Positions 1 through 1,742 of a stretch of 64,000 bases of DNA are shown here, piece after piece (the stretch's first letter is position 1; every line of letters starts with the position of its first letter). Below the pieces are notes generated by a model. It saw only the letters and a program-made list of their open reading frames with translations, was not told the origin of the DNA and did no database searches. The DNA comes from Mycobacterium phage prophiT46-2: sequence record OQ417970.1; one strand, 5' to 3'. Made by a program: the position numbers and the translations under genes.

Positions 1-91
1 AGGTTTTCGGCCGGGTGACGGGGTGTAACGTTTTGTTCACTCCGGGGTGTGTCTAACTTTCAATTCCTTTACTTCGCAAAGGTTTTCACTG

Positions 92-826
92 ATGCCTGCT
101 GCTTTAGTCGCGTTTACCCTTGTCACGGTCTGTTGGTCTCTGTGGATCAGGCGTATGACGTGGACTCGCCATATGGAGGTCGCCGCTACCCTCAACATTG
201 CGTTGCAGGGTGCGGCGATTTTTCTTATGTCCCCGTTGGCATCTCGAACACTCGGGGTTTGGTTGCACGCGCCGACCGGGTGCTGGAATCTTGAGGATCT
301 GATCGGCCATGATTGTTATGTTGTTGCGGCATCGGCGTTTTGCTATCACATGATTATCCGGCTTGACCAGGAGCAGCTGAAACGCCGCTTCAAACTTCAC
401 GTTGAACTCCCCGCGACCCTTTGCTTACCGATCATGCTGGCACTCTTCACTATCGGCAACAGTGCCAAGGTCTATAACGATGACTTCTTTCGCGTTGTTG
501 CGGACGTGTCGCTAACCGCTTACTGGATCGTGCTCTGCGGAACGCTGATGTACCTGCTGGGATACAGCATCTACTCGCTGATACCGATGTGGCGGGACCG
601 GCCGGCGATCCGTGGGCTGTGTGGGTCCTACATGTTGGCCGCAGGGTTCGGCGTGGCCGCGTGCGTGGTCAGGATCGCGACGACATTCCTACCGCCCGAA
701 ATGCAAGACACCGCAGCGACTTCCCTGCCCGTGTGGTTCCTCGCGTGCTGCTGCGGATTGGGGTTCGCCGCGATCTCGGCTCATTCGTGGCTGGAGAAGA
801 ACCGCCTCACGGGGCGGGTGTATTAG
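92..826 (+). CDS. Multi-pass integral membrane protein (about 245 aa), low-GC, convergent with the repressor; candidate prophage-expressed exclusion/defense protein
   Basis: ORF 47..826, internal Met at 92 begins a hydrophobic segment; at least 6 predicted TM stretches; codon usage visibly T-rich compared with neighbours. Confidence 0.55.
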   Translation: MPAALVAFTLVTVCWSLWIRRMTWTRHMEVAATLNIALQGAAIFLMSPLASRTLGVWLHAPTGCWNLEDLIGHDCYVVAASAFCYHMIIRLDQEQLKRRFKLHVELPATLCLPIMLALFTIGNSAKVYNDDFFRVVADVSLTAYWIVLCGTLMYLLGYSIYSLIPMWRDRPAIRGLCGSYMLAAGFGVAACVVRIATTFLPPEMQDTAATSLPVWFLACCCGLGFAAISAHSWLEKNRLTGRVY

Positions 827-1184
827 GTCCGAACGTATCGGGGTGGACAGGCGCGCGCTTGGTCGTCTTGGCAGGCCGCGCCTTAGTCTTTGTGCGGCCC
901 TGGACTTTTGGGGCTTCTGAGCCCTCCACGAGGCGCTTCTGCAGCTCCGTCGCTAATTCCGTGGTGGTGATGCGGGAAATGTCGGGCCGGACAGAAACTT
1001 CACCAAGATCCTCGGGCCCGATAACTCCTGCGGCGGCGAGCGCTTCGAGGGTCACCAGGCCGAAGGCTTTGGCGAACTGAACCACCTTGTTGGGGTCGGG
1101 GCGTGATTGGCTCTCGCCCTTGATCCAGTTGGAGATCGTGTTGGCGCTAAGTCCGGCACGATTCCCGGCGGCCTCGTAGGTCAT
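807..1184 (-). CDS. XRE-family HTH repressor (cI-like)
   Basis: ORF 807..1400 minus; Met at 1184 begins MTYEAAGNRAGLSANTISNWIKGESQ.. which is a classic HTH_XRE; divergent from a Cro-like gene across an operator-rich intergenic region. Confidence 0.6.
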   Translation of the reverse strand: MTYEAAGNRAGLSANTISNWIKGESQSRPDPNKVVQFAKAFGLVTLEALAAAGVIGPEDLGEVSVRPDISRITTTELATELQKRLVEGSEAPKVQGRTKTKARPAKTTKRAPVHPDTFGPNTPAP

Positions 1185-1229
1185 TCCTTTTGCTGCCGCC
1201 TCGACGAACGTAGACCACCGGGCGGCGTC

Positions 1230-1500
1230 GAAGTGTCCGTTCACGTTGCGAACTGTAATGCATTGCGTTGCGTCCACGCAACAAATTCGGCAAAGTTCAC
1301 CGCCGTACCGCAACGCATTGCGTTTCGTAAACGCGCACGTTGCAGGCGGCGCTAGCCCAGCGTAGGCGCCATTCCTGCCATCAAAATGCCGTTGCGGCAA
1401 CGCAACAAGGTGCGCGACACGCGGACGAAACGCGTTGCGTTTGATACCGCAACGCTCTACGGTTCACATCACAACAGAAACGCAATGCGATTCGGAAGTG
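1230..1500. promoter_or_regulatory. Divergent promoter/operator region with 4 or more copies of a 13-bp motif CGCAACGCAATGC in both orientations
   Basis: tgcattgcgttgcg (about 1260), cgcaacgcattgcg (about 1308), cggcaacgcaacaa (about 1397), aacgcgttgcgtttga..ccgcaacgc (about 1430-1455), aaacgcaatgcgatt (about 1481). Confidence 0.6.
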
Positions 1501-1508
1501 GGCGCCGT

Positions 1509-1742
1509 ATGGCAATCAGGTTCAAACGTCAGGGCCTCGACCTCATGCGTAAGCACAACGGGGGAGATCCCGGCGATATGCAGTTCGCTCGGGACATCGG
1601 CATGGACCGCGTCACGGTTTATCGCGTGCTCAATGGGCACGCAGATCCAGGCATCAAGTTCATCAACGGCGTTCTGAACGCGTACGGCGCTAAGCGGTTC
1701 AACGAGTTTTTCGAGGCAATCCCGGACGAGGCCGCATCGTGA
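1509..1742 (+). CDS. Cro-like HTH DNA-binding protein
   Basis: ORF 1386..1742; internal Met at 1509 lies just past the operator repeats; MAIRFKRQGLDLMRKHNGGDPGDMQFARDIGMDRVTVYRVLNG has an HTH signature. Confidence 0.5.
   Translation: MAIRFKRQGLDLMRKHNGGDPGDMQFARDIGMDRVTVYRVLNGHADPGIKFINGVLNAYGAKRFNEFFEAIPDEAAS

What the first reader, a model, noticed from the sequence alone, without database searches (positions are those of the whole stretch)
92..826. Low-GC multi-TM membrane protein convergent with the repressor: candidate prophage-mediated defense
In temperate actinophages the slot between integrase and repressor often carries lysogen-expressed defense genes. Here a 245-aa polytopic membrane protein ends 20 nt inside the 3' end of the repressor gene (tail-to-tail). 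Its codon composition is visibly T-rich compared with the 65% GC neighbours, suggesting horizontal acquisition. No recognisable catalytic motif was found.
Basis: partly seen in the sequence, partly recalled or inferred. Interest (0 to 1): 0.7.

Follow-up and report, generated by a model that had tools for sequence, protein, structure and literature searches.

The report
Repressor-linked seven-helix prophage membrane protein
The ORF is a real, strongly conserved seven-helix membrane protein that sits beside the immunity repressor in many unrelated mycobacteriophages and has a repressor-like partner in the core chromosome of many mycobacteria, so it looks like a fixed partner of the lysogeny switch rather than a swappable defence gene, but its function has not been tested.

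Summary
Window 92-826 (+) encodes a 244-aa protein with seven transmembrane helices. Its last 20 nt overlap, tail-to-tail, the 3' end of the repressor gene (807-1244, -). At 58.1% GC it is the lowest of 54 reference ORFs.

The window is a cluster MabL Mycobacterium abscessus prophage. The tyrosine integrase lies just upstream, outside the window.

The protein belongs to PHROG phrog_950 (E 4e-60). This family includes Adephagia gp42, published as a 7-TM protein of unknown function that is expressed at low level with the repressor in lysogens. In 20 of 21 phage or prophage contexts examined, a family member lies directly beside an annotated or HTH-type repressor.

Seventy-eight of the 80 best bacterial loci are not prophages. 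They are a syntenic core locus (ileS / HTH regulator / 7TM / lipL-meaB) whose regulator is homologous to the phage repressors.

These regulators share an extreme C-terminal peptide (…PRxDAPPL-COOH) conserved at the protein level. This window swapped its repressor's DNA-binding domain, operators and cro, but kept the tail codons and the 7TM gene.

My best reading (about 0.4) is a membrane partner or modulator of the repressor. A superinfection-exclusion or abortive-infection role (about 0.3) is not excluded. Neither has been tested experimentally.

The parts
92..826 (+). Gene for a 244-aa, seven-transmembrane-helix inner-membrane protein of family phrog_950 (Adephagia gp42-like). Predicted topology is N-terminus outside, C-terminus in the cytoplasm.
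   Evidence: ORF and sequence. phrog_950 match E 4.4e-60 over residues 1-238. AlphaFold2 pLDDT 88.5. TM helices and positive-inside pattern. dN/dS 0.08-0.14. Start at 92 supported by homologue alignments.
807..1244 (-). Immunity repressor (145 aa from the GTG at 1244). It is a chimera. The N-terminal HTH domain is of the phrog_5301 type. The last ~30 residues are the tail shared with other MabL repressors (…KRAPVHPDTFGPNTPAP).
   Evidence: Pfam HTH_3 E 1e-7. phrog_5301 E 6e-46 over residues 53-197 of the long ORF. Identity to other MabL prophages drops from 83-100% to 33-47% at about position 900. No phage-collection match (which includes the MabL records) covers more than 73% of the protein, none reaching past residue 115.
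807..826 (.). The 20-nt tail-to-tail overlap of the two genes. The last codons of the 7TM protein (…TGRVY) are antisense to the last codons of the repressor (…NTPAP).
   Evidence: Coordinates.
802..817 (-). GC-rich hairpin followed by a T-rich run on the minus strand at the repressor stop codon. It is terminator-like and lies inside the 3' end of the 7TM gene.
   Evidence: CCGCCCCGTGAGGCGG then TTCTTCTCCA. This is a consensus match only.
1..91 (+). Spacer between the integrase (outside the window, same strand) and the 7TM gene. No sigma-70-like promoter was found, so expression may come from an unrecognised promoter or from read-through of the integrase gene.
   Evidence: Integrase ends about 115 nt upstream of the ORF in near-identical prophages. 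Promoter scan found 0 sites in 1-1800.
901..1700 (.). Immunity-specificity cassette (repressor HTH domain, operators, cro) that has been exchanged relative to other MabL prophages. The left breakpoint lies inside the repressor gene.
   Evidence: Sliding identity to L097, L099, L104 and prophi88-1 is 83-100% (bins 1-900), 33-47% (901-1700) and 93-99% (1801-2100).
1257..1494 (.). At least four copies of a palindromic operator-like motif (~AACGCAxTGCGTT) in the repressor-cro intergenic region.
   Evidence: Copies lie at 1257-1272, 1309-1326, 1425-1441 and 1477-1494. All matches with at most one mismatch fall in this region.

Best explanation
Shown:
- Window 92-826 encodes a seven-helix cytoplasmic-membrane protein of the phrog_950 family.
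- The family forms a conserved two-gene unit with a small HTH regulator. In phages that regulator is the immunity repressor. In many mycobacterial chromosomes it is a homologous HTH protein.
- The regulators consist of an HTH domain, a variable linker and a conserved extreme C-terminal peptide (consensus L-S-E-L-x-P-R-x-D-A-P-P-L-COOH, or [D/N]-x-[P/S]-x-L in phages). The window's tail, …PNTPAP, is a diverged version.

Inferred mechanism:
- The membrane protein is made in the lysogen. Through its conserved cytoplasmic face (W-x-RR-x-TW after TM1, the invariant Arg at the inner end of TM3, the DPRSR-type loop and the SW-x2-K-x-R C-tail) it binds the repressor's C-terminal peptide.
- Binding would hold, stabilise or deliver for turnover a fraction of the repressor at the membrane.
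- Its conserved outer-face motif (TG-x-W-N-L-E-D-x2-G-H) would let an envelope or extracellular cue change that interaction. The lysis-lysogeny switch would then be tuned by something other than DNA damage.

On this reading the protein is a partner or modulator of the switch, not a stand-alone defence effector.

The confidence of 0.4 applies to the inferred mechanism. The identity of the gene (family, topology, module membership) is well supported, at about 0.9.
For: 1. Adjacency. A family member lies directly beside an annotated or HTH-type repressor in 20 of 21 phage or prophage contexts examined. This holds across Kostyavirus (E), Gaiavirus (X), Anayavirus/Fionnbharthvirus/Keshuvirus (K), Faithunavirus/Bronvirus (L), Phrappuccino, DS6A, WXIN, Aegeus, MalagasyRose and several M. 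abscessus prophage types. It holds for both co-directional and convergent arrangements.
2. Core chromosomal pair. Of the 80 best bacterial loci (404 genome stretches encode a relative), 78 carry HTH-then-7TM at a syntenic, non-prophage locus next to ileS and lipL/meaB/mutAB. That HTH protein matches phage repressors (blastp 1e-12 to 1e-21; phrog_1746 E 6e-18).
3. Tail conserved at protein level. The motif DAPPL-stop occurs in 73 of 78 chromosomal regulators. There are 67 distinct nucleotide versions and all synonymous codons are used. The linker before the tail varies in sequence and length.
4. Tail spans repressor families. It occurs in different PHROG repressor families (1746, 2745, 12831) and in both gene orientations.
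5. Tail and 7TM go together. Repressors related to the window's N-terminal domain in cluster F phages (Hades, Avani) have neither the tail nor a 7TM neighbour.
6. This window. It exchanged the HTH domain, operators and cro, but kept the last ~30 repressor codons together with the 7TM gene.
7. Structure. The model is a receptor-like 7-helix bundle. Family-invariant residues lie at the inner ends of TM1 and TM3 (W18, R20, W24, R90) and on the outer face (G63, W215).
8. Expression and selection. Adephagia gp42 (phrog_950 E 3e-94) is expressed with the repressor in lysogens. dN/dS of 0.06-0.15 in both prophage and chromosomal copies is unlike an arms-race gene.
Against: - No interaction has been shown or modelled. 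The tools could not run a complex prediction.
- The tail could serve something else, such as a degron for a cytoplasmic protease, oligomerisation or RNA polymerase contact.
- Its link to the 7TM gene could simply reflect physical linkage at the 3' end of the repressor gene.
- Two prophage lineages (prophiGD90-1 type and L121) have the 7TM gene next to repressors without the tail.
- The window's own tail (…NTPAP) departs from the consensus.
- Repressor genes of this family are deleted or expressed on their own in published work. From memory (Petrova et al. 2015, not read here), the repressor alone confers immunity, so the 7TM protein is not needed for repression itself.
- I know of no precedent for a phage repressor controlled by a polytopic membrane protein. 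By contrast, membrane proteins in this slot in other phages are typically exclusion factors.
- Lysogenic expression of this particular MabL gene has not been shown. The published RNA-seq description of prophiGD43A-6 calls most of the prophage silent.
Confidence: 0.4

Rival explanations
1. Superinfection exclusion or abortive infection. The prophage-expressed membrane protein blocks DNA entry of incoming phages (Sie-type). Alternatively it depolarises the membrane on infection (RexB / Sbash gp31 / Butters gp31-type), protecting the lysogen against heterotypic phages.
For: - The position between integrase and repressor is the classical place for such genes (my own knowledge of lactococcal sie2009, S. 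thermophilus ltp and lambda cI-rexA-rexB).
- The protein is membrane-located.
- A homologue is co-expressed with the repressor in lysogens and is growth-inhibitory when overexpressed.
- Lysogens of K-cluster phages that carry this family show some unexplained cross-cluster protection: the Adephagia lysogen against TM4 and Pixie and the Yasnaya_Polyana lysogen against a cluster Y phage.
Against: - No PADLOC model matches, and there is no Pfam hit, including RexB-type families.
- No adjacent cytoplasmic sensor gene of the RexA or gp30 kind is present.
- The family is conserved rather than patchy, with dN/dS of 0.08-0.14.
- Its closest relatives are core, syntenic chromosomal genes in 78 of the 80 best bacterial loci, paired with their own regulator. 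That is unusual for phage-exclusion genes.
- The conserved C-terminal peptide on the partner regulators is left unexplained.
- No exclusion phenotype has been reported for any family member in the papers read.
Confidence: 0.3
2. Lysogenic conversion or transport. The protein is a small-solute transporter or envelope-remodelling factor (hinted at by the weak similarity to the 'MAB_1171c family putative transporter'). It would change host physiology, for example drug tolerance or biofilm, and its position next to the repressor would only ensure lysogenic expression.
For: - There is a weak NCBIfam match to MAB_1171c_fam over residues 4-227 (E 1.2e-6).
- A transposon mutant of MAB_1171c showed reduced biofilm and lower cefoxitin and clarithromycin MICs in one study (PMC8707978).
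- Chromosomal copies exist at a core locus, so a host-physiology role is plausible.
Against: - The NCBIfam score is 27.9 bits against a cut-off of 100, so the protein is not a member. The 'transporter' label is itself only a prediction.
- A single 7-helix bundle of 244 aa with no internal repeat is not a typical transporter architecture.
- The repressor-tail correlation is not explained.
Confidence: 0.1
3. The gene has little function of its own. Its conservation would reflect constraints on the overlapping 3' end and terminator of the repressor, or on integrase read-through. The ORF would then be a passenger or decaying gene.
For: The repressor's terminator-like hairpin and last codons lie inside the ORF. 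No promoter was detected upstream.
Against: - The full-length ORF is kept in hundreds of phages and chromosomes, with dN/dS of 0.06-0.15 over its whole length.
- Only 20 of its 735 nt overlap the repressor.
- In most lineages the two genes do not overlap at all.
- A homologue is transcribed in lysogens.
Confidence: 0.03

Closest known systems
Adephagia gp42 and the other phrog_950 proteins of mycobacteriophages (annotated 'membrane protein' or 'hypothetical protein' in clusters E, K, L, X, AA, DS6A and others)
   Same: Same sequence family: window ORF phrog_950 E 4e-60, Adephagia gp42 E 3e-94, hhalign probability 98.7%. Both have seven predicted TM helices, lie directly beside the immunity repressor between repressor and integrase, and have no known function. 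Adephagia gp42 is expressed at low level in lysogens and is inhibitory when overexpressed.
   Different: In the window and other M. abscessus prophages the gene is convergent with the repressor, overlaps it, and lies downstream of the integrase. In Adephagia it is co-directional and downstream of the repressor. Identity is only about 23-30% to the K and L members. The partner repressor here has a swapped N-terminal domain and a diverged tail.
Chromosomal HTH + 7TM gene pair of Mycolicibacterium/Mycobacterium (UniRef name 'GP55 protein'; loci L010-L094)
   Same: The 7TM proteins are 53-57% identical to the window protein and have the same length (244 aa). Each is preceded by a regulator homologous to phage repressors that carries the …DAPPL tail.
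   Different: The pair is not in a prophage. It sits at a syntenic core locus between ileS and lipL/meaB/mutAB, has no integrase, and appears vertically inherited. Its function is also unknown.
Lambda RexB, Sbash gp31 and Butters gp31 (prophage-expressed polytopic membrane proteins of exclusion systems)
   Same: All are membrane proteins expressed from the prophage near, or in an operon with, the repressor. They are plausible analogues for a defence role (my own knowledge and PMC6426596/PMC7542560, listed).
   Different: Those proteins have about four TM helices and work with an adjacent cytoplasmic partner (RexA, gp30). No such partner gene exists here, and there is no sequence or profile similarity.
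Sie-type superinfection exclusion proteins in the integrase-repressor slot of Gram-positive phages (lactococcal Sie2009, S. thermophilus TP-J34 Ltp)
   Same: Same genomic slot and lysogenic expression logic (my own knowledge, not tested here).
   Different: Those are small single-TM proteins or lipoproteins that vary between phages. The protein here is a conserved 7-TM protein with a chromosomal counterpart.
NCBIfam NF042915 'MAB_1171c family putative transporter'
   Same: A weak profile match covers most of the protein (residues 4-227 against model positions 3-223; E 1.2e-6). They may share a distant membrane domain.
   Different: The score of 27.9 bits is far below the family cut-off of 100. 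The family model is 362 positions long, with an extra C-terminal region absent here.
Seven-transmembrane receptor fold (GPCR-type bundles)
   Different: Identity is only 3-14%. Foldseek gives no match at E ≤ 0.001, and TM-scores are 0.3-0.5. This is an architectural resemblance only, with no evidence of homology or G-protein-like signalling.

Membership tests
PHROG phrog_950 (mycobacteriophage 7-TM proteins, Adephagia gp42-like) | Full-length match to the family profile | tested here: met
   E 4.4e-60, 204 bits, residues 1-238 against profile positions 1-237 of 272. Adephagia gp42, Keshu gp46, Faith1 gp39 and JoeDirt gp36 hit the same profile.
PHROG phrog_950 (mycobacteriophage 7-TM proteins, Adephagia gp42-like) | Seven transmembrane helices with no soluble domain | tested here: met
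   AlphaFold2 helices and hydropathy give TM segments at 2-20, 28-46, 70-91, 104-122, 139-165, 173-198 and 208-231. Adephagia gp42 is reported with 7 predicted TM domains.
PHROG phrog_950 (mycobacteriophage 7-TM proteins, Adephagia gp42-like) | Gene directly adjacent to the immunity repressor, on the integrase side | tested here: met
   There is a 20-nt overlap with the repressor. The integrase lies immediately upstream in near-identical prophages.
PHROG phrog_950 (mycobacteriophage 7-TM proteins, Adephagia gp42-like) | Expression in the lysogen | not testable with these tools
   This is shown only for Adephagia gp42. RNA-seq of a MabL lysogen exists (GSE161710) but could not be re-analysed here.
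NCBIfam NF042915 MAB_1171c family putative transporter | Score at or above the curated cut-off (100 bits) | tested here: not met
   27.9 bits, E 1.2e-6.
Known anti-phage defence proteins (PADLOC-DB v2) | Match to any defence-system protein model | tested here: not met
   0 families at E ≤ 1.
RexAB-like / Sbash gp30-31-like two-gene exclusion systems | Polytopic membrane protein encoded next to a cytoplasmic sensor partner | tested here: not met
   The only neighbours are the integrase (upstream) and the repressor (convergent). No additional ORF with coding signal lies in 1-1250. There is no Pfam hit.
Sie-type superinfection exclusion proteins | Blocks DNA entry or plating of superinfecting phages when expressed | not testable with these tools
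   This needs plating and DNA-entry assays. No such phenotype is reported for any family member in the papers read.
Sie-type superinfection exclusion proteins | Located in the lysogeny module between integrase and repressor | tested here: met
7TM receptor (GPCR-like) fold | Significant structural match to solved 7TM receptors | tested here: inconclusive

The most novel reading that the evidence does not exclude
The phrog_950 protein and its HTH partner form a previously undescribed 'membrane receptor + tail-docked repressor' switch. A seven-helix membrane sensor would capture or release the repressor through its conserved C-terminal …DxPPL peptide. This would give many mycobacteriophages (clusters E, K, L, X, AA, DS6A, MabL and others) an envelope-sensing route to control lysogeny and induction that does not depend on SOS. 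Mycobacteria would have kept or domesticated the same module as a core chromosomal signalling pair.
Probability: 0.3. Interest if true: 0.85.

Novelty: new member of a known kind. Interest (0 to 1): 0.55.

Why it matters
- Induction mechanism. It is poorly understood how the small repressors of many temperate mycobacteriophages, which lack a LexA/CI-type protease domain, are inactivated or tuned. Several of these phages (Adephagia, Fionnbharth, ZoeJ relatives) are engineered for therapy. A membrane partner that always travels with these repressors is an obvious and cheap candidate to test.
- Therapeutic constructs. Phages such as FionnbharthΔ45Δ47 delete the integrase and repressor but, by numbering, keep the gene between them. 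The role of that gene is therefore practically relevant.
- Host biology. A homologous regulator + 7TM pair at a core locus of many Mycolicibacterium/Mycobacterium species links phage immunity cassettes to host gene regulation, by domestication or capture. It offers a tractable, non-phage system for working out the biochemistry.
- Annotation. Current GenBank entries for MabL prophages start this gene 21 codons too late, which removes the first TM helix.

Tried and rejected
1. Catalytic or domain assignment. Pfam gave no hit and PADLOC none. NCBIfam gave only a sub-threshold MAB_1171c match. Family-invariant residues (W18, R20, W24, G63, R90, W215) form no recognisable catalytic set, and the E/D of the N-L-E-D motif is lost in K4/Aminay-type members. 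I therefore dropped the idea of a membrane protease such as CPBP or rhomboid.

2. McProf gp2 as supporting expression evidence. The M. chelonae prophage McProf has the same int / gp2 / repressor layout, and gp2 is 'moderately expressed'. However, prophages fetched by the McProf att core carry an unrelated ~113-aa gene in that slot, with no family HMM hit. This evidence was discarded.

3. A second profile search of the 5.8-billion-protein set, meant to reach distant relatives with context, returned only the same chromosomal group. The alignment of distant members was too diverse for the locus scan.

4. The afdb50 fold library was not available. Foldseek against the PDB gave nothing significant.

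5. A fused or paired AlphaFold prediction of 7TM + repressor was prepared (paired sequences) but not submitted.

6. Promoter search. No sigma-70-like site was found in 1-1800, so the transcription unit remains unresolved.

7. Literature. Searches for an Ms6 'pin' exclusion gene or any functional study of this family found nothing usable. The Fruitloop paper is not held.

8. Horizontal acquisition as the explanation for low GC was only weakly supported. Half of the deficit is amino-acid composition, and homologues track their own genomes' GC.
Full report
**1. What the window is**

The first 6 kb match Mycobacterium abscessus prophages prophi88-1 and prophiGD43A-6 at 96% identity over 81% of the query. 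These are cluster MabL prophages integrated at attB-10 (PMC8092301). Window position 1 corresponds to record position 1245 of prophi88-1.

In that record the order is gp1 tyrosine integrase (145-1221), gp2 'hypothetical protein', gp3 'immunity repressor', then cro and excise. The integrase is therefore just outside the window. In near-identical IMG/VR prophages it ends about 115 nt upstream of the ORF, on the same strand (L096 is 97-100% identical to the window over 1-1300).

**2. Check of the observation**

ORF and start codon:
- The ATG at 92 opens a 244-codon frame that ends at the stop 824-826.
- Homologues from phages and bacteria align from residue 3-4.
- Residues W15, S16, L17, W18 and R20 are invariant in a 50-sequence alignment. 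W18, R20 and W24 are invariant even across the most distant members.
- The GenBank start used for prophi88-1 gp2 (= window 155) would remove the first transmembrane helix. Position 92 is the correct start.

Overlap with the repressor:
- The minus-strand repressor ORF stops at 807-809, so the two genes overlap tail-to-tail by 20 nt.
- From the PHROG match, the repressor probably starts at the GTG at 1244, giving 145 aa.

Structure and selection:
- An AlphaFold2 model built on 50 homologues is confident (pLDDT 88.5, pTM 0.86) and entirely helical.
- With hydropathy it gives seven TM helices. Arg/Lys-rich segments (RRMTWTRH, KRRFK, WRDRPAIR, EKNRLTGR) sit on one side, which indicates N-out/C-in.
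- dN/dS against orthologues is 0.08-0.14, so this is a real gene under constraint.

Composition:
- The ORF has the lowest GC of 54 reference ORFs (58.1% against 64.9 ± 2.6%).
- Given its amino acids and the window's codon usage, 61.7% is expected.
- The residual deficit lies wholly in codons 1-122 (GC3 0.63 against 0.82 expected).
- The adjacent repressor (62.5%) and cro (58.2%) are also below average.
- In other genomes the homologues follow the local GC.

The compositional observation is correct, but it is weak evidence for recent horizontal acquisition.

**3. Family and context in phages**

Database matches:
- Pfam finds nothing and PADLOC finds nothing.
- NCBIfam gives only a sub-threshold match to the 'MAB_1171c family putative transporter' (27.9 bits against a cut-off of 100).
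- PHROGs places the protein firmly in phrog_950, function unknown (E 4.4e-60).
- tblastn finds relatives in 248 phage records, all from Mycobacterium phages.

I examined 21 phage or prophage contexts in three orientation classes.

Co-directional and immediately downstream of the repressor (repressor -> 7TM, then integrase):
- ShamWow (Kostyavirus)
- Gaia
- OmniCritical (Fionnbharthvirus, K4)
- Aminay
- DS6A
- Faith1 and JoeDirt (cluster L)
- Keshu and Adephagia (cluster K)
- Aegeus
- WXIN

Convergent with the repressor:
- the MabL prophages
- MalagasyRose
- prophiGD90-1
- Phrappuccino
- several IMG/VR prophages

In 20 of these 21 contexts the gene lies directly beside an annotated or HTH-type repressor. 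For L120 no flanking ORFs were recovered. In Phrappuccino, DS6A, WXIN and the IMG/VR prophages the neighbour is unannotated, and I call it a repressor from its sequence. Family membership of the distant ones was confirmed by PHROG, hhalign and an HMM built from my alignment.

The family is small and taxonomically narrow. Only 336 representatives at 50% identity reach E ≤ 0.001 among 1.84 billion proteins.

**4. What is published**

[quoted passage not shown] It is expressed with the repressor at low level in a lysogen, and it is among the genes that inhibit M. smegmatis growth when overexpressed (PMC11373665). I verified that Adephagia gp42 is a phrog_950 member.

I found no functional study of the family.

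McProf gp2 in M. chelonae is reported as expressed and has the same int / gp2 / repressor layout. It turned out not to be usable evidence. Prophages retrieved by the McProf att core carry an unrelated ~113-aa gene in that slot.

**5. Chromosomal counterparts**

Most of the 1145 database homologues are 244-aa proteins of Mycobacterium/Mycolicibacterium, about 55% identical to the window protein. Their contexts are not prophages.

A scan of one genome per species found 404 stretches that encode a relative. Among the 80 best loci:
- 78 carry, about 43 nt upstream on the same strand, a 124-139-aa HTH protein.
- 77 carry a conserved divergent 202-aa gene.
- 73 carry ileS.
- 57 carry lipL and 56 carry meaB.
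- Only L015 (M. franklinii, 89% identical to the window protein) matches any of the phage integrase queries and is MabL-like.

The chromosomal HTH protein is homologous to the phage repressors that accompany the 7TM gene. blastp gives 1e-12 to 1e-21 against Gaia gp68, MalagasyRose gp44, OmniCritical gp46, Aminay gp46 and Phrappuccino gp40. It also matches phrog_1746, the family of the Adephagia, Keshu and Faith1 repressors. Chromosomal copies are under purifying selection too, with dN/dS of 0.06-0.15.

The unit of conservation is therefore a two-gene module: HTH regulator plus 7TM protein.

**6. A conserved C-terminal peptide on the partner regulators**

- In 73 of 78 chromosomal regulators the protein ends …L-S-E-L-x-P-R-x-D-A-P-P-L-stop.
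- These 73 tails have 67 different nucleotide versions, with every synonymous codon of A, P, P and L used. The constraint is therefore on the protein.
- The stretch between the HTH domain and the tail varies in sequence and length.

Phage repressors next to phrog_950 genes end in variants of the same motif:

| Phage or locus | C-terminal ending |
|---|---|
| ShamWow (cluster E) | DAPPL |
| Phrappuccino | DAPPLG |
| WXIN | DAPPM |
| Faith1, JoeDirt | DIPPL |
| Adephagia | DIPSL |
| OmniCritical | NKPPL |
| Aegeus | SKPPL |
| MalagasyRose | RNPPL |
| Gaia | RNSPL |
| DS6A | VQPL |
| L123 | DVAPL |
| L116 | ESPPL |

The motif spans PHROG repressor families 1746, 2745 and 12831 and both gene orientations.

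Exceptions and counter-examples:
- prophiGD90-1-type repressors (…LKGR) and L121 lack the tail but still neighbour a 7TM gene.
- Cluster F phages Hades and Avani have repressors related to the window's N-terminal domain. These end …RARQRRKD/ED, and their repressor-integrase slot holds an unrelated 148-150-aa protein with no family HMM hit.
- I found no repressor that carries the tail but lacks a 7TM neighbour.

**7. What is special in this window**

Compared with the other MabL prophages, identity changes sharply along the window:

| Window positions | Content | Identity to other MabL prophages |
|---|---|---|
| 1-900 | 7TM gene plus the last ~30 repressor codons | 83-100% |
| 901-1700 | repressor HTH domain, operators, cro | 33-47% |
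| 1801-2100 | excise and the start of the next gene | 93-99% |

The usual MabL repressor begins MPRSDRRGRDLKTFL…, the same family as the chromosomal MPRTDENGRQLKALL… regulators. The window's repressor instead has a phrog_5301-type N-terminal domain, related to cluster F, cluster J, Arthrobacter and Gordonia phage repressors. No match in the phage collection covers more than 73% of the protein, and none reaches past residue 115.

The window is thus a heteroimmune recombinant. The left crossover lies inside the repressor gene and preserved the tail (…KRAPVHPDTFGPNTPAP, a diverged form of the motif) together with the 7TM gene. The new intergenic region carries at least four palindromic operator-like sites.

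**8. Structure**

- Foldseek finds nothing at E ≤ 0.001. Its top hits are again 7TM receptors and a few microbial rhodopsins, with TM-scores of 0.3-0.5.
- I read this as a receptor-like 7TM architecture, not as homology.

Conserved positions lie on both faces:
- Cytoplasmic face: W-x-RR-x-TW after TM1, an invariant Arg (R90) at the inner end of TM3, the DPRSR-type loop and an SW-x2-K-x-R C-terminal segment.
- Outer face: TG-x-W-N-L-E-D-x2-G-H before TM3, and W215.

**9. Interpretation**

Shown:
- family membership
- topology
- purifying selection
- adjacency to a repressor or HTH regulator in 20 of 21 phage contexts and 78 of 80 chromosomal loci
- the protein-level tail motif
- the mosaic history of this window
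- lysogenic expression of one homologue

Inferred: that the membrane protein and the repressor tail interact, and that this tunes repressor availability.

I rank this 'repressor partner' model first (about 0.4). It accounts at once for the adjacency that survives phage mosaicism, for the tail, for the correlated presence and absence of tail and 7TM gene, and for a long-lived chromosomal pair with low dN/dS.

The exclusion/abortive-infection model (about 0.3) has better precedent for genes in this slot and fits the overexpression toxicity. It does not explain the tail or the core chromosomal pair, and no defence model matches.

A transporter or lysogenic-conversion role (about 0.1) rests only on a sub-threshold match. 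A non-functional ORF is essentially excluded.

The main weakness of my preferred model is that physical linkage alone could produce the tail-7TM correlation. No binding has been tested either.

**10. Verdict**

- The interpretation as a horizontally acquired defence cargo gene is only partly supported.
- The gene is a new member of a catalogued but uncharacterised family.
- The family-level pattern is the interesting result: a regulator with a conserved C-terminal peptide plus a 7TM protein, in phages and in core chromosomes. I did not find it described in the papers I could search, and it is directly testable.

Noticed in passing
window 901-1700: The immunity-specificity cassette (repressor HTH domain, operators, cro) is only 33-47% identical to other MabL prophages, while the flanks are 83-100% identical. 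The window is therefore a heteroimmune recombinant with a crossover inside the repressor gene.
   Followed up: yes
window 1257-1494: At least four copies of a palindromic motif (~AACGCAxTGCGTT; 1257-1272, 1309-1326, 1425-1441, 1477-1494) lie between the repressor and cro. They are probably the operators of this immunity type.
   Followed up: partly
window 155 (= MW584166 position 1399): GenBank annotations of prophi88-1 gp2 start the 7TM gene 21 codons downstream of the start supported by homologues. This removes the first TM helix and the invariant W-S-L-W-x-R motif.
   Followed up: yes
L010:6830-8735 and equivalents in L016-L094: The chromosomal HTH + 7TM pair is transcribed divergently from a conserved ~202-aa gene with a faint Condensation-domain hit, next to ileS. 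The relation of that gene to the pair is unknown. It occupies the position that cro has in phages.
   Followed up: no
window 92-457 (codons 1-122 of the ORF): Only the 5' half of the gene has atypical codon usage (GC3 0.63 against 0.82 expected). The 3' half is native-like. MabL relatives share this. It could reflect a mosaic origin or a constraint on expression.
   Followed up: partly
window 802-817, minus strand: A GC-rich hairpin plus a T-rich run sits exactly at the repressor stop codon, inside the 3' end of the 7TM gene. It is a possible repressor terminator that convergent transcription of the 7TM gene would have to cross.
   Followed up: no
window 61105-63045, minus strand: A 646-aa protein with a C-terminal Tox-REase-5 domain (E 3e-7). 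This is the polymorphic toxin of the PT-Imm cassette described for MabL prophages near attR.
   Followed up: partly
L134:2651-3601 and L135 (IMG/VR prophages sharing the McProf att core): These M. chelonae-type prophages have an unrelated ~113-aa gene between the integrase and repressor, and a repressor without the …PPL tail. The slot is therefore not always filled by the 7TM family.
   Followed up: yes
L136:3192-3638 (Hades gp44), L137:3249-3701 (Avani gp51): Cluster F phages carry a conserved ~150-aa protein with an N-terminal hydrophobic segment and a Thr/Pro-rich linker in the repressor-integrase slot. This is another lysogeny-module gene of unknown function.
   Followed up: no
Literature (PMC12699233, PMC12235445): The therapeutic derivative FionnbharthΔ45Δ47 deletes the integrase and repressor but, by numbering, leaves gene 46 (the 7TM homologue). 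The natural K1 deletion mutant Zabiza lacks the integrase and the last 29 repressor residues and makes clear plaques.
   Followed up: no
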